A DNA stretch of 60,186 nt from an uncultured Lachnospiraceae bacterium (GTDB lineage: Bacteria > Bacillota > Clostridia > Lachnospirales > Lachnospiraceae): NCBI GenBank assembly GCA_949879775.1, contig CATLBW010000001.1, positions 1 through 60,186 on the forward strand, in the 5' to 3' direction. The position numbers were made by a program, and so were the translations under genes. Shown one piece after another: positions 27,487 to 40,283 of this stretch (position 1 is its first letter; each line of letters starts with the position of its first letter). The notes beneath the pieces were generated by a model. That model saw only the letters and a program-made list of their open reading frames with translations. It made no database searches and had not been told where the DNA came from.

Positions 27487-28109
27487 ATGCTTCCTCTCCT
27501 GTGCTTTTTTGTTGTCCTATTTTATTTAACGAAATTATTCTTGGAATTTCTTCACTATTTTTCTTAATTTTTCTTTAAGATTATACCCCGGCAGTCTTAA
27601 CTGACGCATGATAGAACAAAATGCCGTCGCGCAGTAACATCTTAAAGGCGCATTCGACGCCCTATCGGAATGGGAATTGCAGAAGGATATAGGGCGCCTC
27701 CTGCTGCCTGAGGACAGTCTATCGCATTTTTCTTAAAATTGCCCTGTGTTTACCTTACAATAAACTTACAGTTTTGTAATGTTGAAGGCTTAGGGCATGT
27801 TGCAGGGGCGATATTTCACAACATAACAGAAAAACCCCCGGAAAGCTATACTACCAGGGTTGTATTGGGGGTAGTATTTTTCTCGCAGGGCAGGAATGAA
27901 TTAAAATGATTATTTGACGGCATAAGGAAATAACTGCCGCAGGAATTGGCTTTCCAATCGACTGAAAAAAGGCGCTACACTGCACCACGAATAACAGGAG
28001 AGATTTCTCCTTTTTGTCACGGGTCTTATTTCCGCAAATGGGACATAATAACCAGTTACTTATTTTTTCATTTCCAGCATTGCATTTTTCAACTCGCTTT
28101 CAACATATT

Positions 28110-28589
28110 TTACTTAATAAATTTATCAAAGAATTTATATGCGACAACGCATAAGCCGATAGGCAACGCAAAGAGGAGACCACCAATACATATCCCAATA
28201 ATCAGATGAAGCGTTGAATAATCATCTGATAACATATAAAATCTTAGTCCCCATACAGAATTAACCAGAAATAAAAAGCCTGTAATCAGTCCATGAGAAA
28301 CCTTTTTATCCTTGATTGTATAAAAGAAATGGTCTCCAAAATTGATAAGCCCCCATATCAAAACAGCCACACCAAAACAAATCATATTTTTGTTGAATAT
28401 ATAAATGAATACTGCCAACAGCAGCATAGGATAATAGATAAAAATATTATTTGCCATCCAATGTCCATGCGTCATATGATAGGGCAGCCATTTATGTTCA
28501 TACATCCATCTAGGGAAATCTCCAACTGCTTCCTCAAATAAATGAAATGGTATGTAGATCATAAGGTTTAATAAGATAAAGCTAATCAT
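28110..28589 (-). CDS. HXXEE domain membrane protein
   Basis: FHLFEE motif; multiple TM helices. Confidence 0.8.
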   Translation of the reverse strand: MISFILLNLMIYIPFHLFEEAVGDFPRWMYEHKWLPYHMTHGHWMANNIFIYYPMLLLAVFIYIFNKNMICFGVAVLIWGLINFGDHFFYTIKDKKVSHGLITGFLFLVNSVWGLRFYMLSDDYSTLHLIIGICIGGLLFALPIGLCVVAYKFFDKFIK

Positions 28590-29121
28590 GTTTTCCATCC
28601 TCCCCGTTAATTTTCTGTTCAAAAATCTTTTCCCATTTTTCTAATGTTTCTAAAAGCATATATTGTTGTTCCAATATCATTTGTCCTAATAAGGTCATTT
28701 CCTTTTGCCTTGACATTTGTTCTTGTATTTGGTTTTTGGTTTTACAAATGCTGTTCTTTATATTGTCCATACATTCTTTGAAATCTGTATCATCAAGCGA
28801 TGACATATTTACAATAACGGCGTTGAAATCCAAAAATATTCTGGTTTCACCTGCTGAAAATTCAGACATCAATTCACGAAACTTTGTTTTCCCGTTTGGT
28901 GTGAGTGTATATACTGTTTTTTCAGGCATATTCCCATTCTTCTTTGTTTCACTAAGGACAAATCCTTTTTTTTCATATTGGATAACTTTTTTATATACTG
29001 TATAAGAACCTATTTTTACCCATCTGGCTAAATGCCTGTCCTCAATTTGTTTTTGTAATTCGTATGCACTTTTGGGGCTTTGATAGAGTGAGCCTAAAAT
29101 TATTAAATCAATAGTTGACAT
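28582..29121 (-). CDS. PadR family transcriptional regulator
   Basis: SAYELQK, PEKTVYTLTPNG. Confidence 0.85.
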   Translation of the reverse strand: MSTIDLIILGSLYQSPKSAYELQKQIEDRHLARWVKIGSYTVYKKVIQYEKKGFVLSETKKNGNMPEKTVYTLTPNGKTKFRELMSEFSAGETRIFLDFNAVIVNMSSLDDTDFKECMDNIKNSICKTKNQIQEQMSRQKEMTLLGQMILEQQYMLLETLEKWEKIFEQKINGEDGKHD

Positions 29122-29138
29122 ATATTTTCTCCTTTCTA

Positions 29139-29188
29139 TACTGTATAATACAGTATTGTATAATACAGTAAAGAAAAATAAATGTCAA
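29139..29188 (-). promoter_or_regulatory. padR promoter with tandem palindromic operators
   Basis: TTGACA-17-TATTAT; TACTGTATAATACAGTA and TATTGTATAATACAGTA repeated at 15-bp period over the -10 and start region. Confidence 0.7.
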
Positions 29189-29293
29189 GATTCGCTATCT
29201 ACCATCAAAAGGGTTTCTGCGGCTTTTCCACGCTCATGCCTATGCTCCAAAATATTAATACTTACAATTTCCCCATTTTCTTTTCCGATATTC

Positions 29294-29869
29294 TCATTTC
29301 AAACACCTCTCAATCTTTCTGCCTATGCGCTTTGGAAGCCCCTTTTTAGAAGAAGCGCCTGCATAGACAACTTTGCCTATTGGCTTCATGCCTGCAGCCT
29401 TAAAAAATTCGTCCATATTACGTATTGCCCCCCTGCTTTGTCCAAATATCCATGAAAATGGGAAAGGGGTATTGCAGGAAGTTAAAAGCATATATTTTTT
29501 CCCTTTCAAACGTGGTTTGGGGAAAGTATTTGTTTCTTCCATAGCTGTTCCTAACAATCGGTCAAATAAATTTTTAACAGGGGCAGGGACATTCGCCCAA
29601 TAAACAGGCGCCGCAAGAAAGACTATCTGGCATTCACGCAAAAAGCTGGCGATTTCCTGCATATCGTCTTTTTGCGTACAGACTTTCGTGTCTATACAGT
29701 TACGGCATCCCATGCAGAATGAGATATTTTTTTCGTACAGATTTATTTTAGTTACCATATAGCCTTTCTCCTCGGCTCTGCGGATTGCAATTTCCATCAT
29801 AGACGCCGTCTTCCCGTTTCTATGAGGGCTGCCTAAAATTGCAAGCGCCAATTTCTTGTCCGTGCTCAT
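29294..29869 (-). CDS. NAD(P)H-dependent FMN reductase / iron-sulfur flavoprotein family
   Basis: GSPHRNGKT, CMGCRNC..C, APVYW, KNLFDR. Confidence 0.85.
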   Translation of the reverse strand: MSTDKKLALAILGSPHRNGKTASMMEIAIRRAEEKGYMVTKINLYEKNISFCMGCRNCIDTKVCTQKDDMQEIASFLRECQIVFLAAPVYWANVPAPVKNLFDRLLGTAMEETNTFPKPRLKGKKYMLLTSCNTPFPFSWIFGQSRGAIRNMDEFFKAAGMKPIGKVVYAGASSKKGLPKRIGRKIERCLK

Positions 29870-30507
29870 TTCCCTCCCTCCTTTTCAATCGAATGGTATA
29901 ACATATCAAAGCCATACTCTAAAAATTGTTTTTTAGATAAGTGCATTGTTTTTTCAATGTATTCTTCTTTATTTGCCGCCAACTGGATAAGCCCTGACAA
30001 CATACCCCAGAACTGAAAGATAGCAGGCATAACTTTTATGTCATCACGCAAATCGCCTTTTTTCATGCCGCTTACTAAAAAATCCTTTATTTTTTCATTT
30101 ATTTCCTCCCCGACTTGATAGGTTTCTTTCTCTTCGGGCAAATAACCTTGGCTTTCAAAATCAATGTTAATTTTATCTAACACCATTTTAAAATAAAAAG
30201 GAAATTCTTCTTGGTACAAGACTAACCCCCGGCAAATCATATCATACCTTGCTTTTGTCCCCTCCTGCTGCTCCAATGCGGAAGTTATGTAACTGTAAAG
30301 CCTTTTCATGCTGTCTAACACTAAAAAACCGATAATTTCCTCTTTGTTCTCAAAGTACACATACAATGTCGCTTTGCTATATCCAGCCGCTTTTGCTATA
30401 TCATTCATGGAAGTTGCCGTAATCCCTTTCTCCATAAACAATGCCGAAGCGGCAGCGGCAATATTTTCTCTATGTACGCTTTTGGGTTCTTTTTTTCTGC
30501 GTGCCAT
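29866..30507 (-). CDS. TetR/AcrR family regulator
   Basis: TSMNDIAKAAGYSKATLYVYFENKEEI. Confidence 0.92.
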   Translation of the reverse strand: MARRKKEPKSVHRENIAAAASALFMEKGITATSMNDIAKAAGYSKATLYVYFENKEEIIGFLVLDSMKRLYSYITSALEQQEGTKARYDMICRGLVLYQEEFPFYFKMVLDKINIDFESQGYLPEEKETYQVGEEINEKIKDFLVSGMKKGDLRDDIKVMPAIFQFWGMLSGLIQLAANKEEYIEKTMHLSKKQFLEYGFDMLYHSIEKEGGK

Positions 30508-30525
30508 CTGTATTTCTCCTTTCAT

Positions 30526-30573
30526 TAATTAAACCATCGGTTTAATTATATTCCATTGACATGATTTTGTCAA
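30526..30573 (-). promoter_or_regulatory. Consensus sigma-A promoter and TetR-type operator
   Basis: TTGACA (30573-30568)-17-TATAAT; palindrome TAATTAAACC-atc-GGTTTAATTA at 30526-30548. Confidence 0.75.
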
Positions 30574-31047
30574 TCTGCTTCGCCTTATATTCATAAATAG
30601 TTTTCATTTATATTCACAAAACTCTCCCGAAAAAAACAGCAGAGATTTCTCTCTGCCGCCTTGCTGCTTAAGCATATATAATTTCCTCGTTCACAATCTC
30701 CCCGCACAAGCCCTTATACCTTAAGACGTTGCATCCATTCTAAGGTAGGCGTTCAGTTTGCCACTTGTGAGAGGATTGATTTTTAAGAGATTAGGCGGCG
30801 AATATGAACAGCAAGGAGATAATCCAATACCGTGCTTAACTGTAACCGCCGAATAGGAACAGGCATAGGGCATAACGGAACAGCTAAAAGCAGGAAATTT
30901 AACTTTTGAGAAAAGAAAATTGGGGTAATTGCATAGTAAAATATTGCAAAATTGCACTTGCTTATTTGATAACAAATGCTGATGGTTGCTTGTATTTATG
31001 TCAAAATGATGATAAGATACAGTTATAAATTAAGAAGAGGATAAGGC

Positions 31048-31977
31048 ATGGCAAACATATATGATGGGGCATTTCGGACAATCTTAAATGACTGCCGAAA
31101 ACTGATTATTCCGATTATCAATGAGATTTTTAGTGAAACATATACAGGGGAAGAGGAAATTCAGTTTTTTCCCAATGAGCATTTTATAGACCAGCAGGAT
31201 GAAGCAGACAAAGAAAGAATTACTGATACGAATTTCAGGATTTTGGGAAAAGTACAGAAGAAATACCACATTGAATGTGAAAGCAGCATGCCGGACGGCA
31301 AGATTGCAATACGGCTTTTTGAGTATGATGCACAGATAGCTCTTGACGAGGGCGAGGTTACAGAGGAAACACTGACCGTGACATTTCCCCATACGGCCGT
31401 TTTGTATCTCCGGTCTTATCAAAAAACGCCAGACAGAATGAAGTATGTGATAATTACGCCGGGCGGAACAGTGCAGTATGATGTGCCGGTTATGAAAGTA
31501 CAGGCGTATTCATTGAATGATATTTTTGAGAAAGGCCTGCTGATGCTGATCCCGTTTTATATCTTTTCACATGAGAAAAGTTTTTCTGAGTATAATAGTA
31601 ATGAGAAAAAGTTGGCAGAATTGGAAGCGGAATATCAAATTATCCTTAAAAGGCTTGATGAGTTGGAACGGCAGGGAGCCATTGGGGCATTTGATAAGCG
31701 GACAATTATTGATTTATCGGGTGATGTTATAAAGGAAATCGCACAGAAATATGAAAACGTGCAGAAAGTTGTAGGTGGTATGATGAGAGGTGCAATGATT
31801 GAAACGAGTGCAAGGAGGATTTTAAATCAGGGCATAAGCCAGGGCATAAATGAAACAAAAAAGGAAACAGCCCTTAGGATGCTGCAGGATGGAGAATTAT
31901 CAATTGATAAAATTGCAAAATATTCAAATCTTGAAGTCGCAGAAGTGGAGCAGCTTGCAGGGTTGCAAACCGTGTAA
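31048..31977 (+). CDS. Rpn-like / PD-(D/E)XK nuclease family protein
   Basis: YDGAFR...RITD...YHIECES...IRLFEYD; C-terminal QGISQGI...TALRML..IAKYSNL tail typical of the family. Confidence 0.7.
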   Translation: MANIYDGAFRTILNDCRKLIIPIINEIFSETYTGEEEIQFFPNEHFIDQQDEADKERITDTNFRILGKVQKKYHIECESSMPDGKIAIRLFEYDAQIALDEGEVTEETLTVTFPHTAVLYLRSYQKTPDRMKYVIITPGGTVQYDVPVMKVQAYSLNDIFEKGLLMLIPFYIFSHEKSFSEYNSNEKKLAELEAEYQIILKRLDELERQGAIGAFDKRTIIDLSGDVIKEIAQKYENVQKVVGGMMRGAMIETSARRILNQGISQGINETKKETALRMLQDGELSIDKIAKYSNLEVAEVEQLAGLQTV

Positions 31978-31988
31978 TAATTGCTTTA

Positions 31989-32072
31989 GAACAGAAATTG
32001 GAAGAACTGAAAGCAGAATAACAGATTATACGAAATAGACTTGATAAATTGGAACAGCAGAGGGAATTGTGA
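31989..32072 (+). pseudogene. Degenerate fragment paralogous to the Rpn-like gene
   Basis: EQKLEELKAE*QIIRNRLDKLEQQ aligns with EKKLAELEAEYQIILKRLDELERQ (31603-31674). Confidence 0.7.
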
Positions 32073-32168
32073 AACAAATGCTCCACAATTCCCCCTGTTC
32101 ATTTCTTTATGGCTGCTCTCCTTCAAATAGAATGCCCAAATTCACTTATGAAACTTACTGCAACGCCC

Positions 32169-33200
32169 TTACAAGTGCCTCAAAACATTAGAGGTTGATT
32201 TTTCCACTCCTACAACCACAAGCCTGTTGTCTGTGTCATGCCCGTCGCAGGTGGAAAGCATTACAAAAGATTCACCATACACAAACTGATAACCGGTATC
32301 ATAAAGACGGTTTTGGCTGATAAAATCCATATATTTTTGAAATTCCTGATCATCATAATTGTAAAAATTAAAGTAGCAGAAATCCCCGGTATCTGATACG
32401 TCTGTTACCAACACCGCCGCAATTTGGTACGTGGATTTCTCATAGAGGGTGTTGAACCCAAAGCCGGGATGCCCTTCAAAAAAAGCCTTGTCCTTATATT
32501 TTTTTAACTCTCCAAACATACTCCCATCGCTCATGTTATGCCCATACAACACGATATTCTTGTCTTTTGGATATATGTTTGTGGCGCCATCAAGGAAAAT
32601 AGCGCCACACCTGTCCTCTTTTTCAAAAAAGTTATGGGAAAGATAAAATTCCGGGTTTTCCCTATTCTGTAAAACAGGATAATCTATGTCTGTGCCCTCC
32701 ACTTTTATCCATCCTACAAAATCCTCGTTCAAATCGTAAAACCTTTGGTACTCTTCCATAACCTTGGGGTTTCCCGAACCTCCATCGTCTGTTGGGGACA
32801 GATTCGTTTCCTGTCTCTCTTGAGGCAGGGTATCCGGCAAACTGCCTGTGCCCTCCCTGGCTTCCATTTCTGCCAAAACTTCCTGTAATACCTTATTTTC
32901 ATGGTCCTTTACCCTGCTGGCTGCTCCAGCCCCCAGCAGTAAAGCAGCCGTAAGGAACGCCAGGGTTCCAACTTGCCGTACGAAAAACGCGGCATACCGC
33001 CGATACCTGGCAAAGGAAGTCTTTGTTTTTAGCCCCTCAAAAAAGGATCTTCCTATCCAGGTATAAAACCTGTGCTTCCCCTGTTTTTTCAATTTGCGGT
33101 ATACCGCGTCCACTTCTTTTTGGTCAGACAGATTATAACTCTGGCTAATCGTATAGATTTTTTGTATATCCTGGAGCATTTTTTCATTTATCGTTTTCAT
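32169..33200 (-). CDS. srtB: Class B sortase
   Basis: TM anchor; DFVGWI, IDYPVLQ, YGHNM, LSTC, NRLVVVG; ATGA overlap with the upstream gene. Confidence 0.9.
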   Translation of the reverse strand: MKTINEKMLQDIQKIYTISQSYNLSDQKEVDAVYRKLKKQGKHRFYTWIGRSFFEGLKTKTSFARYRRYAAFFVRQVGTLAFLTAALLLGAGAASRVKDHENKVLQEVLAEMEAREGTGSLPDTLPQERQETNLSPTDDGGSGNPKVMEEYQRFYDLNEDFVGWIKVEGTDIDYPVLQNRENPEFYLSHNFFEKEDRCGAIFLDGATNIYPKDKNIVLYGHNMSDGSMFGELKKYKDKAFFEGHPGFGFNTLYEKSTYQIAAVLVTDVSDTGDFCYFNFYNYDDQEFQKYMDFISQNRLYDTGYQFVYGESFVMLSTCDGHDTDNRLVVVGVEKSTSNVLRHL

Positions 33201-33874
33201 CGGGATAATTTTCTTTTTATAATGACGCAAGAGCATCCCACTGCAAGGCAAATCCCTCCCAGGAAGAGCACCTTAAAATCCAAAATATCTATCCCTGTCT
33301 TATAAGCCTTGCTGGTTTGAGCCTTATCCCCTGTATGGCTGCCCTGGTTCCCGCTGTCCCCATTTCCATTCCCGTTACCGGGGACAGCGCCGCTGCCTCC
33401 CTGTTTTTGGTAGGAAACGTTTGTGGACTCCGAAACATCCTGCATATCCTTATCCGTAACATCCCTCAATTGTAATTCCACCGGGACATCTGAGTAATCC
33501 CCTTTTACGGAAAAAGCCAAGGTCACCACTGTCCCGCTGCCCTGATACCCAACGTCAGATATCATGGAAATATTCAGCGCTTTCCCTCCATCATTTTCCA
33601 CATCTGATACAAGGGTCATGGCATTTGCACTTTTTATGCCCTCTGACCAGGACTCCCCCTCAAAGGTAAGTTTGTCGCTGTCATAATTAAGGCGCAGCCC
33701 TAACGTGGTGACTGGTTTGCTCCCGGATATATCGATTTCAACATTTATTTTATCCCCTGCCTTAGCAGCCTCTTCTGTCCGATATGTAATATTGATATCT
33801 GCTCCCCATACTATTTGGGGGAACAGGAAAATCAGGCATAGTGCCGCTAATGATAATTTTATCGTTTTTTTCAT
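33197..33874 (-). CDS. Single-cohesin cell-wall anchoring protein
   Basis: Signal peptide; GDKINVEIDI...LGLRLNYDSDKLTF...VVTLAFSVK cohesin pattern; Gly/Asn linker; AYKTG, hydrophobic stretch and KRKLSR tail. Confidence 0.75.
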   Translation of the reverse strand: MKKTIKLSLAALCLIFLFPQIVWGADINITYRTEEAAKAGDKINVEIDISGSKPVTTLGLRLNYDSDKLTFEGESWSEGIKSANAMTLVSDVENDGGKALNISMISDVGYQGSGTVVTLAFSVKGDYSDVPVELQLRDVTDKDMQDVSESTNVSYQKQGGSGAVPGNGNGNGDSGNQGSHTGDKAQTSKAYKTGIDILDFKVLFLGGICLAVGCSCVIIKRKLSR

Positions 33875-33905
33875 CTTGCTCTCCTAATTGTCCTTTTATG
33901 CCTTG

Positions 33906-35171
33906 TCAAAATTCGGTGATTTCCCCGTTAAAGTACTTCATTATCATTAACGCGTCCACAAGATTTACCGTTCCATTTTTGTCCACATCCGCCGCTGTCT
34001 CCTGGGCTTTCGTAAACTCCCGCACCTGGTTGTAATTCTGCAAAATGTAAACTGCATCTACAAGGTCAATCTTTTTATCCGCATTGACGTCGCCTAATGT
34101 TGGCTGCTCCTCGCCGCCTGCGTCTGTTATGCTTACGGCACAGGTCGTCCCACTCCCGCTCATGCTTGTCTCCGCTTTATTCCCTACCTGGCTAACCCCT
34201 ACTTCAACATTGGAGCTTGTGCCTGCTGCCACCCCATCCTTTACTTTCAATTTTAATTTCAGGAAATCCCCCACATCCGTGATATCCTCCAAGGCAATGA
34301 ACGACGCTTTTATCCTGCCGGAACCCGGCGCTTCATAGATAGAATCCAGGCTGATTTTGGATTGCAGGCTCTCGGCAATTTCCAACGATTCATAGGTGAA
34401 CAGGGACGTATCGTAATCCAAGTCCAGACCTAAGAGGTTGAAGCCATCGTTTCTTTCGATATTTATGGGAACAATGATTTCTTCACTGCCCTGGGCTGGG
34501 GTGGTGGAGAGGGTAAGCTTAGACGCTGCGTCAGAAGTATCTGTCAAGTTTAAAGTAAGGACATCATAGTTATACCCTCCCTCAACTTTTACTTCATACC
34601 TATGCTCATCTGGAGTAACACTCGTCAGAGCAATAGCCCAAAAATAAATTTTAGTAGACGTTACGTCTTTTTTTACCCGATATGTCACTGTCGCCACGCA
34701 ACCACCCTTATCAAGCCCATTTATCTGTTGTGTCTTCGTTTCATATGAAGCCTCTAGCCACACATGTCCAGGAATTTGAAGAGAAGCATCACTGTAGTCC
34801 GATACGCCATATTTTAAGTGTTCATCGGGGAAGTCTATTCCCACAAATTCCAATACATTTTCATCATAAGTTGCATCCATTGTCCAGCCAAAGAGATTTG
34901 CTTGCAGACTGTCTTTTTCCTTATCATAAAAAATCTGAACCTCTACCGTATCTCCTTCCCTCAAAGAATGAGAATCCGTCCGGACTTGTATCACCCCATC
35001 TTCCGTACTTGTTCCGCAGTCATAAAAACCAGTAACTCCATTTCCAGTTCCCAAAATCTCTGCCAGTTCCGGTGAAAGTGACTTCTCTGCCCTCACCTCC
35101 CCCGGAACCCCCAGACAGATACACACAGCCAGCACAACCGTAGACATTCTCTTTAACAACCGTTTCATCAT
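33906..35171 (-). CDS. Secreted cohesin-cohesin-dockerin protein (mini-scaffoldin)
   Basis: Signal peptide; two cohesin-like domains (GDTVEVQI..ATYDENVLEFV; IIVPINI..LDLDYDTSLFTY); dockerin GDVNADKKIDLVDA...ADVDKNGTVNLVDA. Confidence 0.8.
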   Translation of the reverse strand: MMKRLLKRMSTVVLAVCICLGVPGEVRAEKSLSPELAEILGTGNGVTGFYDCGTSTEDGVIQVRTDSHSLREGDTVEVQIFYDKEKDSLQANLFGWTMDATYDENVLEFVGIDFPDEHLKYGVSDYSDASLQIPGHVWLEASYETKTQQINGLDKGGCVATVTYRVKKDVTSTKIYFWAIALTSVTPDEHRYEVKVEGGYNYDVLTLNLTDTSDAASKLTLSTTPAQGSEEIIVPINIERNDGFNLLGLDLDYDTSLFTYESLEIAESLQSKISLDSIYEAPGSGRIKASFIALEDITDVGDFLKLKLKVKDGVAAGTSSNVEVGVSQVGNKAETSMSGSGTTCAVSITDAGGEEQPTLGDVNADKKIDLVDAVYILQNYNQVREFTKAQETAADVDKNGTVNLVDALMIMKYFNGEITEF

Positions 35172-35527
35172 TTGCTCTCCTTCCTCTCTCTGTCACATGC
35201 TTTTTTCAATATTGCAAATAGGTCCTTTATATCAAAAAGCGTACTTTTTGATAAATGCCCTTTTTTTATTATTTACAGTATTTTTTCACCAACTTTGAAG
35301 GAAAAATCACAGAAAAGTTTTATATTTTGCAGCCAAAACCTATAAAAACAAAAATAATTATTGCATTACCATCCCATTTATAGTAAAATATCCCATAAGA
35401 AAAGAAGTATCAAAAAGTACACCTTTTGATACTTCTTTTCACGTTTCCCGACCCATGCGGTACTCCCGCAAACGTCGGTAAAACGTGGCATGGCTCATAT
35501 TGCATTCCTGGATTGCATCACCACACT

Positions 35528-35852
35528 TTATCTGCCCAGCAGGTGACGCTGAGCGGCTCCTGCCGTTACCTTACTTTCCCTGATACTTTCCCTTTCATTC
35601 ACCGCCACAAAAGACAGTATCTGCAGCACCAAATCTGCAATCAAATACCCCGTAGCAAGCTGACGGGGTATCAATCTTGCTGCGGGGTGTTTGACCCTCG
35701 CGGCATTCGTCAAATATCCATGCAAGCATGTCTATTTTCCTCATTGCTCGCGGGAATAAACGTCCCCATAAGGTCTTTTCCATTGCAAGCATCTGCCTGC
35801 CCTCATTCTGCTCCACGCTTGACACGCGCACATATCCATATATGTTTCCCAT
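35528..35852 (-). pseudogene. Serine recombinase/resolvase pseudogene
   Basis: MGNIYGYVRVSSVEQNEGRQ in one frame and YLIADLVLQILSFVAVNERESIRE in another; internal deletion and frameshifts. Confidence 0.85.
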
Positions 35853-39876: not shown

Positions 39877-40095
39877 TTTCACGCTTTAACGTGACAAGAC
39901 CTTTCCTAGAACAAAGCGGACAAGTCCGCATCAGCTCCCTAAATCCCTCATTCATGAGGGACTTGGACGATTTGCTGCGCCGAGCACAATTGCGAAGCAA
40001 TATTTTCCTCTTGTGCGAGTGCGCATAATTATTTTTATCTTATAGGTAAAGGTGCTTTCACGCTTTAACGTGACAAGGCCTTTCCTATAAGATAA
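39877..40095. repeat. REP/MITE-like palindromic element
   Basis: TTTCACGCTTTAACGTGACAAG(A/G)CCTTTCCTA repeated at 39877 and 40056; long hairpin 40035-40095; internal TCCCTCATTCATGAGGGA. Confidence 0.65.
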
Positions 40096-40283
40096 GAAGA
40101 TAAAATAGCCAAAAGCAGTAATCCCGCCTCTGGCTATCCTTATCTTTTGTCATATCCGGTAAAACCTCTCCCTAAATATTCAGTAATTGAAACTGCCGAA
40201 GATACAGCCCCTCCAGGCGATGCGCCACGCACGAACATGCAAAGCAGCCGTGCCTGGCGCAGTTGGCGATAATTAATCACCAG

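What the first reader, a model, noticed from the sequence alone, without database searches (positions are those of the whole stretch)
32169..35171. Minimal cohesin-dockerin surface module with its own sortase and no CAZyme
Seen: an operon of a secreted Coh-Coh-Doc protein, a single cohesin with a sorting signal, and a class B sortase. Established: sortase-anchored cohesins that capture dockerin-bearing scaffoldins underlie Ruminococcus cellulosomes and amylosomes (ScaE-type anchoring). Inference: a compact, possibly mobile mini-scaffold in a Lachnospiraceae-like host. Because one protein carries both cohesins and a dockerin, it could self-polymerise into a chain or branched surface polymer, or display dockerin cargo encoded elsewhere.
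Basis: partly seen in the sequence, partly recalled or inferred. Interest (0 to 1): 0.75.

Follow-up and report, generated by a model that had tools for sequence, protein, structure and literature searches.

The report
Switchable cohesin-dockerin surface chain cassette
A rodent-gut bacterium carries three genes behind a predicted flip-flop promoter that likely fix one cohesin 'socket' to the cell wall and likely stack a secreted plug-and-socket protein on it into chains carrying a highly variable outer domain, which would be a switchable surface fibre rather than a fibre-digesting complex.

Summary
Observation confirmed: a secreted Coh1-Coh2-Doc protein, a single cohesin with a YKTG sorting signal and a class B sortase. 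No cargo was found. The genome's only other dockerin is on an M60 peptidase that travels with its own cohesin-like partner, independently of this cassette. Across 33 homologues Coh2 and the dockerin are conserved (66%, 76%), and Coh2 resembles the anchor cohesin. Coh1 is hypervariable (33%), most on its would-be binding face. One relative has tandem paralogues with near-identical Coh2-Doc and divergent Coh1. It faces away from the operon here and is flipped in a relative. Best reading (0.45): a phase-variable, wall-anchored head-to-tail Coh2-Doc chain displaying a variable domain. Binding is untested; the complex predictor was unavailable. Self-binding Coh-Doc proteins are known (R. bromii Amy4, R. 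flavefaciens ScaH). This scan noted sortase-B cohesin cassettes and this switch family earlier on other DNA. New variant of a known kind.

The parts
35439..35852 (-). Broken small serine recombinase (Hin-like invertase) gene: pieces match residues 3-23, 100-112, 109-151 and 172-201 of the intact homologue in L021; most of the catalytic domain is missing
35408..35431 (.). Site A: 24-bp near-palindromic recombination site directly after the recombinase stop; central dinucleotide GT in operon orientation
35361..35389 (+). Predicted sigma-A promoter (TTGCAT, 17 nt, TAAAAT) inside the invertible segment; points away from the operon in this assembly (predicted OFF)
35242..35419 (.). Invertible segment (about 178 bp between site centres); a 75% identical segment stands in the opposite orientation in L165
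35230..35253 (.). Site B: 24-bp palindromic site, 92% inverted match to site A; central dinucleotide AC in operon orientation
33906..35171 (-). Secreted Coh1-Coh2-dockerin protein (predicted chain subunit)
34539..35036 (-). Coh1: cohesin-fold domain with hypervariable face (residues 45-210)
34125..34526 (-). Coh2: conserved type-I-like cohesin resembling the anchor cohesin (residues 215-348)
33909..34097 (-). C-terminal dockerin with two near-symmetric Ca-loop/helix repeats (Leu-Val at positions 10/11 of both)
33197..33874 (-). Anchor: signal peptide, single cohesin (33404-33799), flexible linker, AYKTG sorting motif (33293-33307), membrane helix and basic tail
32169..33200 (-). Class B sortase with an N-terminal extension before its membrane helix; translationally coupled to the anchor gene
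32058..32097 (.). Hairpin between srtB and the convergent Rpn-family gene; possible terminator (not called by the terminator scan)

Best explanation
The cassette encodes a class B sortase, a single-cohesin anchor and a secreted Coh1-Coh2-dockerin protein; the sortase likely fixes the anchor to the wall, the dockerin likely plugs into the anchor and then into Coh2 of the subunit below, giving a predicted unbranched non-covalent chain that displays the hypervariable Coh1, and the operon is likely switched on and off by promoter inversion. Shown: domain content and folds, conservation pattern, no compatible cargo found, two inverted sites with a promoter-like sequence, and a homologous segment flipped in a relative. 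Inferred from known families: sortase anchoring and dockerin-anchor binding (about 0.9), inversion as an expression switch (about 0.9). Inferred and untested: Coh2 binds its own dockerin in trans (about 0.5), and Coh1 acts as a variable adhesin or antigenic decoy. In this strain the switch was assembled OFF and the local recombinase is broken, so flipping would need the intact homologue on contig C43.
For: Closed system: a profile built from family dockerins scores the cassette dockerin 117.7 bits and the only other hit (M60 peptidase) 12.8 bits among the 12,243 ORFs called in G000. In G042, which has the same three genes, the cassette dockerin is the only dockerin found by Pfam and by a family alignment. 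Coh2 is under purifying selection (dN 0.091, dS 0.865 against the orthologue in L014), like the anchor cohesin (0.089, 1.05) and dockerin (0.055, 1.23). Coh2's face strands are as conserved as its back (0.82 vs 0.78; anchor 0.87 vs 0.75), while Coh1's face is the least conserved part (0.34 vs 0.58), also within 5 of 5 Coh1 types. Coh2 and the anchor share face residues: invariant Gly on strand 3, Ser-x-Ile on strand 6, invariant Asn/Asp on strand 8. The anchor profile scores Coh2 29.6 bits and Coh1 5.5 bits, and hits the Coh2 position in 42 of 46 distant representatives against an earlier domain in 3 of 46. Tandem paralogues in L014 are 100% identical in DNA over residues 244-406 yet 27-60% over Coh1, as expected of interchangeable subunits with a common joint. 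Precedent for self-recognition: Amy4 (PMC4611034) and ScaH (PMC5301203). Switch: 17 of 32 recombinase loci examined have two sites, cores GT then AC in 17 of 17, each enclosing a promoter-like sequence; L165 has the homologous segment flipped at the site, promoter towards a secreted-protein gene (score 145.5 flipped, 32.5 unflipped, shuffle maximum 60).
Against: Coh2 and the anchor differ at several conserved face positions (Thr/Arg, Asp/Val, Ile/Asp, Gln/Asp), so they may not share a ligand. Profile-profile comparison ranks Coh1-anchor (97%) above Coh2-anchor (93%). Coh2's face is only slightly more conserved than its back, and not more in type T5 (0.58 vs 0.61). Related cassettes of the Eubacterium plexicaudatum group have a single cohesin beside the dockerin that resembles the anchor poorly (36%), so the wider family works without an anchor-like cohesin in the subunit. 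The Coh2-Doc linker is 10-20 residues and binding in cis was not excluded. Near-identity of Coh2-Doc holds for the one verified paralogue pair only (98%); five pairs inferred from equal contig length are 65-86% and do not group in the tree, and an assembly artefact in L014 is possible. Pfam missed a cohesin-like domain in this genome, so divergent cargo could also be missed; G000 is 95% complete. Two other full cassettes (L015, L022) show no switch sites and L014 has only one. The one contig spanning both sites in run X1 has the window's orientation.
Confidence: 0.45

Rival explanations
1. One-to-one display. The dockerin binds only the sortase-anchored cohesin; Coh2 is a conserved stalk that spaces the variable Coh1 from the wall. 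No chain forms; paralogues compete for the same anchor.
For: Conserved face differences between Coh2 and anchor; Coh2 conserved about equally on both sides; E. plexicaudatum-group cassettes lack an anchor-like cohesin in the subunit; R. flavefaciens ScaF and ScaI bind ScaE with weak or no binding to other cohesins (table passage).
Against: A mere stalk need not keep invariant exposed Gly247, Gln327 and Asn330 in 33 of 33 homologues or stay anchor-like in 42 of 46 distant representatives.
Confidence: 0.3
2. Classical adaptor scaffoldin. The protein docks on the anchor and its cohesins capture dockerin-bearing enzymes encoded elsewhere (the M60 peptidase, undetected divergent dockerins, or proteins shed by other bacteria).
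For: This is the textbook role of Coh-Coh-Doc proteins (polyvalent adaptors, PMC11557425 passages). An M60 peptidase with a dockerin is in the same genome. The assemblies are incomplete. A variable Coh1 face could track variable foreign dockerins.
Against: M60-dockerin orthologues occur in 8 genus genomes whose dockerin hits include no cassette-sized ORF, and were not found among the dockerin loci of G004, which has the cassette. The M60 gene keeps its own downstream partner in G000, G007, G016, G046 and G048, whose N-terminus looks like a cohesin. Its recognition positions are Glu-Gly and Ile-Ala, not Leu-Val. G042 shows no other dockerin.
Confidence: 0.15
3. In this strain the cassette is a silent passenger: the promoter is stuck OFF because the adjacent recombinase is broken and the C43 enzyme does not act on these sites.
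For: Broken recombinase; promoter faces away; single orientation in the X1 contig; a decayed copy of anchor and sortase exists in G007; the C43 sites differ in their arms.
Against: All three frames are intact and dN/dS against L014 is 0.05-0.42; both sites are intact; an intact homologue (71% to the L021 enzyme) is in the genome; a weak forward promoter-like site overlaps site B. This rival concerns this copy, not what the cassette does.
Confidence: 0.1

Closest known systems
Ruminococcus flavefaciens ScaE + ScaH
   Same: A sortase-anchored single cohesin (ScaE) binds a Coh-Doc protein with a symmetric dockerin (ScaH) that also recognises its own cohesin (PMC5301203 passages).
   Different: ScaE serves a cellulosome with many dockerin enzymes and uses type III modules and an LPXTG motif. 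Here Coh2 folds like type I cohesins, the motif is [YF][KQR]TG with an operon-encoded SrtB, there is an extra hypervariable cohesin, and no enzyme cargo was found.
Ruminococcus bromii amylosome Amy4 (Sca1) + Sca2
   Same: Amy4's cohesin binds its own C-terminal dockerin, predicted to multimerise, and its dockerin binds the sortase-signal anchor Sca2 (PMC4611034 passages).
   Different: Amy4 carries a GH13 amylase and recruits other amylases; here the N-terminal module is a non-catalytic variable cohesin fold, the parts are in one operon with their sortase, and the promoter is invertible.
Minimal or non-cellulolytic Coh-Doc systems (Cellulosilyticum lentocellum ClcC/ClcD; Paenibacillus guangzhouensis; Limousia mucinolysome; Archaeoglobus fulgidus cohesin 2xdh)
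   Same: Very few cohesins and dockerins, or dockerins found almost only on cohesin proteins (PMC13487519 abstract; PMC11557425 passage; PMC12997984 passages; 2xdh Z 14.9).
   Different: The bacterial ones carry glycoside hydrolases or peptidases. None of the passages seen describes a variable cohesin tip or phase variation.
Sortase-assembled pili of Gram-positive bacteria (recalled, no call)
   Same: Operon of secreted beta-sandwich subunits plus a dedicated sortase and a wall anchor; variable exposed domains.
   Different: Pilus subunits carry sorting signals and are joined covalently by a pilin polymerase. The subunit here ends in a dockerin with no sorting signal, so any chain would be non-covalent and Ca-dependent.
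[quoted passage not shown]
   Same: Small serine recombinase gene followed directly by a short promoter-bearing segment that inverts (bioRxiv 10.1101/2025.07.22.666180 passage).
   Different: Sigma-A-like rather than FliA-dependent promoter; cargo is a cohesin-dockerin operon; local recombinase broken. Whether the sites are the same as in that preprint was not checked (its extended data were not seen).

Membership tests
Cohesin | Nine-strand jelly-roll beta-sandwich and Pfam PF00963 score above cut-off, for all three domains | tested here: met
Cohesin (functional) | Conserved 8-3-6-5 face able to bind a dockerin: anchor and Coh2 | tested here: inconclusive
   Faces conserved; strand-to-face assignment rests on recalled cohesin topology; binding not modelled or measured
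Cohesin (functional) | Conserved 8-3-6-5 face: Coh1 | tested here: not met
   Face 0.34 vs back 0.58 over 33 homologues; lower than the back within 5 of 5 types
Dockerin type I | Two Ca-binding loop-helix repeats, PF00404 above cut-off | tested here: met
   44 bits vs 22.9; Ca-loop Asp and helix residues invariant in 33 of 33; PDB dockerin hits
Class B sortase | TIGR03064 above cut-off; His, Cys, Arg catalytic motifs | tested here: met
ScaE-type anchoring scaffoldin | Single cohesin with C-terminal sorting signal (motif, membrane helix, basic tail) | tested here: met
   motif is AYKTG, not LPXTG
ScaE-type anchoring scaffoldin | Covalent attachment to peptidoglycan by the sortase | not testable with these tools
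   needs cell-wall proteomics
Cellulosome / amylosome / mucinolysome | Dockerin-bearing glycoside hydrolases that load onto the scaffoldin | tested here: not met
   2 dockerin proteins in G000, neither with a GH domain; 1 to 3 in G041-G043
Self-recognising Coh-Doc proteins (Amy4, ScaH) | Cohesin and C-terminal dockerin in one secreted protein plus a separate wall anchor | tested here: met
Self-recognising Coh-Doc proteins (Amy4, ScaH) | Dockerin binds its own cohesin | not tested
Sortase-assembled pilus | Shaft subunit with its own sorting signal for covalent polymerisation | tested here: not met
   the secreted protein ends in the dockerin; no sorting signal found
Hin-type promoter inverton | Two inverted sites whose asymmetric cores match only in inverted orientation, next to a serine recombinase gene | tested here: met
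   recombinase is broken in the window and intact in L021 and on C43
Hin-type promoter inverton | Promoter inside the segment, close to one site and pointing outward | tested here: met
   promoter-like match ends 11-32 nt from site A in 17 of 17 two-site loci; sequence consensus only, activity not measured
Hin-type promoter inverton | Segment found in both orientations among homologues | tested here: met
   of 9 loci with a homologous segment, 8 have a recombinase beside it: 7 as in the window (window included), 1 flipped (L165)
Hin-type promoter inverton | Both orientations present in this strain's population | tested here: inconclusive
   only contigs were available; the one spanning contig has the window's orientation

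The most novel reading that the evidence does not exclude
A previously undescribed class of Gram-positive surface fibre: a calcium-dependent, non-covalent 'cohesin-dockerin pilus' built head to tail from one subunit type on a sortase-anchored primer, in which a cohesin has been repurposed as a diversifying tip domain, paralogous subunits share a homogenised joint so they can co-polymerise, and the whole is phase-varied by promoter inversion in gut Lachnospiraceae.
Probability: 0.35. Interest if true: 0.85.

Novelty: new variant of a known kind. Interest (0 to 1): 0.62.

Why it matters
Cohesins and dockerins outside cellulosomes are common and mostly unexplained. This is about the simplest closed case: one dockerin type, three cohesins, one sortase, so three binding assays settle how it assembles. 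If the chain is real, it is a route to surface fibres that needs no pilin polymerase, with a variable domain and an ON/OFF switch typical of structures seen by the host immune system or by phages. It would also give protein engineers a natural self-extending Coh-Doc unit with an exchangeable N-terminal domain. If only 1:1 display holds, it is still a phase-variable variable-antigen system built from cellulosome parts.

Tried and rejected
No RNA holder listed for the region, so expression is untested. Contigs of 4 runs laid on the window gave no strand-changing joint at the sites; a low-depth joint 35254-35408 with a 20-letter side was set aside as likely from another organism; contigs drop rare forms. 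M60 peptidase as cargo: rejected. Branched polymer through Coh1: rejected on its variable face. General concerted evolution of Coh2-Doc: only the L014 pair groups together; 5 of 6 putative pairs do not, and the Coh2-Doc tree is the quick tree, without bootstrap. An early count of 'only one dockerin' for G046 and G048 was corrected: a family alignment finds a second, M60-type one in each. L202 has a forward-facing promoter between sites but its segment shows no homology to the others above shuffles, so it is not counted as a flipped copy. A strict site-plus-promoter pattern found only 2 of 401 family genomes and added no flipped copy. The anchor alignment found no full-length homologue in 300 other genomes of the order, only 8 weak hits of 35-40 bits. 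phmmer of the anchor against the PDB gave nothing; the fold search did. The metagenome scan gave 2 short contigs. The palindromes as transcription-factor operators: rejected because of the GT/AC core rule in 17 of 17, the adjacent recombinase and the flipped homologue. Literature: searches (cohesin/dockerin terms; inverton terms) listed no paper describing this protein family or a phase-variable cohesin-dockerin operon; the library omits most subscription papers, and no supplementary files were read (the inverton tables of PMC11892184 could list this site family).
Full report
OBSERVATION. The three genes are real and lie as described on the minus strand. The 420-aa protein has a signal-like N-terminus, two cohesin stretches and a C-terminal dockerin; the 225-aa protein has one cohesin; the third is a sortase, above the class B cut-off. 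An AlphaFold model built on 33 homologues (pLDDT 83.6, pTM 0.47) aligns Coh2 to type I cohesins (Z 16.1, rmsd 2.2) and Coh1 to a type II cohesin (Z 10.1, rmsd 3.6). The anchor model's best structural matches are cohesins. The anchor ends in AYKTG, a membrane helix and a basic tail; the motif is [YF][KQR]TG in all 29 aligned rows. A scan of the genome's ORFs gave 9 candidate tails, of which 2 look like true sorting signals, each next to its own SrtB; the genome has 4 sortases. The sortase start most likely overlaps the anchor stop (ATGA at 33197-33200).

HOST AND DISTRIBUTION. The genome (G000, 95% complete) is a Lachnospiraceae-type gut bacterium: related loci carry such titles, and a mouse-gut run holds a 3.8-kb contig over 31897-35538 with 5 differences, with shorter pieces in a rat-gut study. 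The protein has 41 relatives among 7998 candidates scored; I aligned the query with 32 of them and left out 9 (self, partial or different length). A profile search of 1.84 billion representatives lists many 370-450 aa proteins with a C-terminal Coh-Doc pair; the 46 I selected and scanned all carry a dockerin and none shows a catalytic Pfam domain at E 1e-4. Among 49 genus genomes, dockerin ORFs of the cassette's size occur only in G000 and G004. The same three genes occur in L014, L022 and (in another order) L015, with different neighbours each time. The window's 27.9-36.3 kb stretch has GC 0.40 against 0.48-0.49 in the flanks, holds other genes in G007 and is missing in G005. G007 has a decayed anchor/sortase piece 88-97% identical in DNA although its backbone is 81-85% identical. 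The cassette is accessory and moves.

NO CARGO FOUND. Pfam finds 3 cohesins (all here) and 2 dockerins in G000. The second is on a 1782-aa M60 peptidase. A profile of family dockerins gives it 12.8 bits against 117.7 for the cassette's, and its recognition positions differ. M60 orthologues turn up in 8 genus genomes without a cassette-type dockerin ORF and not among G004's dockerin loci. The M60 gene keeps a downstream partner in 5 of 5 genomes where I read the neighbourhood (G000, G007, G016, G046, G048), and that partner's N-terminus looks like a cohesin. It is a separate pair. In G042 the cassette's dockerin is the only one found by two searches; G041 and G043 each have two cassette-type dockerins and one unrelated. 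Caveat: Pfam missed the M60 partner's cohesin, and these are incomplete assemblies.

A CONSTANT JOINT AND A VARIABLE TIP. Mean pairwise identity is 0.33 for Coh1, 0.66 for Coh2, 0.76 for the dockerin (33 rows) and 0.65 for the anchor cohesin (22 closest of 29 rows). Taking strands 3, 5, 6, 8 as the dockerin-binding face (recalled cohesin topology, mapped on the models; strand 5 of Coh1 was left out as ill-defined), conservation face/back is 0.82/0.78 for Coh2, 0.87/0.75 for the anchor and 0.34/0.58 for Coh1. Coh1 falls into deep types, and its face is less conserved than its back in 5 of 5 types. Against the orthologue in L014, dN/dS is 0.42 for Coh1, about 0.1 for Coh2 and the anchor cohesin, 0.05 for the dockerin; dS is 0.40 for Coh1 against 0.74-1.2 elsewhere, which suggests Coh1 was exchanged more recently (one pair, inference). 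L014 carries two tandem paralogues, identical in DNA over residues 244-406 and 27-60% alike over Coh1; the window's gene resembles the first in its first 15 codons (0.80 vs 0.67) and the second in Coh1. Coh2 and the anchor share invariant or near-invariant face residues (Gly, Ser-x-Ile, Asn/Asp) but differ at others. The anchor profile prefers Coh2 to Coh1 in this protein (29.6 vs 5.5 bits) and in 42 of 46 distant representatives (these were selected with a Coh2-Doc query), whereas hhalign ranks Coh1-anchor 97% and Coh2-anchor 93%. A related group of cassettes (L016-L021, L103-L106, including E. plexicaudatum) has a one-cohesin subunit whose cohesin resembles the anchor poorly (36%), beside large LRR/Ig-like surface proteins without dockerins.

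THE SWITCH. Upstream lie two 24-bp near-palindromes, 92% complementary and 154 nt apart; no other site in the genome comes within 2 mismatches of the arms. They follow a broken serine recombinase gene; the same layout with an intact enzyme precedes a related cassette in L021, and again on contig C43 of this genome before surface-glycosylation-like genes. Of 32 recombinase loci examined (30 from the genus search, L021, the window), 17 have two sites, always with core GT then AC, and in 17 of 17 the best promoter-like match faces the recombinase, ending 11-32 nt from site A. Downstream genes are often secreted or surface proteins. Of 20 further family loci, 5 have two or more sites: 3 face back, 1 forward, 1 is ambiguous. 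Decisive at family level: in L165 the recombinase end and site match the window, then the 75% identical segment runs the other way, its promoter facing a secreted-protein gene, with the second site lost. Of 8 homologous segments with a recombinase beside them, 7 are as in the window and 1 is flipped. The window's copy is thus predicted OFF. L015 and L022 show no sites and L014 one, so the switch is not an obligatory part. The OFF excess could arise if the OFF promoter runs antisense into the recombinase (inference, untested).

MECHANISM. Most likely: in ON cells SrtB links the anchor to the wall, the secreted protein docks by its dockerin, and, as no other ligand is on offer for a conserved anchor-like Coh2, further subunits dock on Coh2, giving an unbranched chain with one variable Coh1 per subunit (0.45). 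Rivals: 1:1 display with Coh2 as stalk (0.3), adaptor for unseen cargo (0.15), silent copy (0.1). Binding was neither modelled nor measured, and cis closure over the 10-20 residue linker is not excluded.

WHAT IS KNOWN. Self-recognition with a sortase-type anchor is published for R. bromii Amy4/Sca2 (PMC4611034, passages) and R. flavefaciens ScaH/ScaE (PMC5301203, passages). Minimal and non-cellulolytic systems are described in PMC13487519 (abstract and outline), PMC11557425 (passages) and PMC12997984 (passages); PMC12484212 (passages) and PMC13463774 (one passage) added nothing on chains. Hin-linked promoter inversions in gut Firmicutes appear in bioRxiv 10.1101/2025.07.22.666180 (passage), and PMC11892184 (passages) reports unpublished Firmicutes_A inverton motifs; its supplements, not read, may include these sites. 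Eight searches listed no paper on this family. This scan had noted sortase-B cohesin cassettes and this switch family in other genomes; no look-alike of this protein was on record. Hin/hix and sortase pili are recalled, from no call.

VERDICT. Real, not a cellulosome, and richer than first read: a closed, mobile, switch-controlled Coh-Doc display with a diversifying cohesin. Each ingredient has precedent; the combination and the possible fibre do not, as far as searched. New variant of a known kind; interest 0.62.

Noticed in passing
G000:C26:1681-8451 (L010): 1782-aa M60 peptidase with N-terminal dockerin, FN3 and F5/8 domains, followed by a 471-aa protein with a cohesin-like N-terminus (missed by Pfam, Atlas 0.91) and FN3-like repeats: a separate two-gene Coh-Doc pair, conserved in G007, G016, G046, G048.
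   Followed up: partly
L113:6008-11527 (G041): S8 peptidase with an internal dockerin next to a small cohesin protein with a VRTGD-type sorting tail: another dedicated dockerin/anchor pair; 1550-1650 aa dockerin ORFs of similar size are common in the genus.
   Followed up: partly
G000:C43:18562-19363 (L130): Intact serine recombinase with its own two-site promoter segment, upstream of a 501-aa membrane protein resembling surface-glycosylation genes; candidate trans-acting enzyme for the window's switch.
   Followed up: partly
L165:373-1043 (G002:C38): Switch apparently locked ON: segment flipped, second site deleted, recombinase in pieces, promoter directly before a secreted protein gene.
   Followed up: yes
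L016-L021, L071, L103-L106: E. plexicaudatum-group cassettes: homologous YKTG anchor plus a single-cohesin Coh-Doc protein, often SrtB, embedded among large LRR/Big_2/Flg_new/FN3 or RCC1 surface proteins lacking dockerins; up to three such loci per genome. What their cohesin binds is unexplained.
   Followed up: partly
window 33000-33200 (-): The cassette sortases share an N-terminal extension of about 70 residues before the membrane helix, also seen in L014, L015, L022 and in related form in L018/L104; no family assigned.
   Followed up: no
L209:244-1116 (G007:C38): Decayed anchor (93% aa) and sortase (85% aa) pieces beside transposase-like genes in another species: recent transfer followed by loss.
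   Followed up: partly
window 35650-35803: A short stretch inside the recombinase remnant draws very high contig depth from many organisms, suggesting an inserted multi-copy repeat.
   Followed up: no
window 39909-40099: About 190-bp intergenic element present in dozens of copies in G007, G001 and other relatives.
   Followed up: no
window 31048-31977 (+): Rpn-family nuclease/putative transposase gene convergent on srtB; a PD-(D/E)XK transposase-like gene also flanks the cassette in L014.
   Followed up: no
window 27900-31000: Low-GC cluster of TetR, flavodoxin-like, PadR-like and HXXEE genes sharing the variable interval with the cassette.
   Followed up: no
L202 (G435): Two-site segment with a forward-facing promoter before a 423+ aa protein whose start resembles TnpB/TldR-like proteins (family label recalled, not scanned).
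   Followed up: no
P0042, P0076, P0086, P0150: Longer family members with two or three variable cohesin-like domains before the conserved Coh2-Doc.
   Followed up: no
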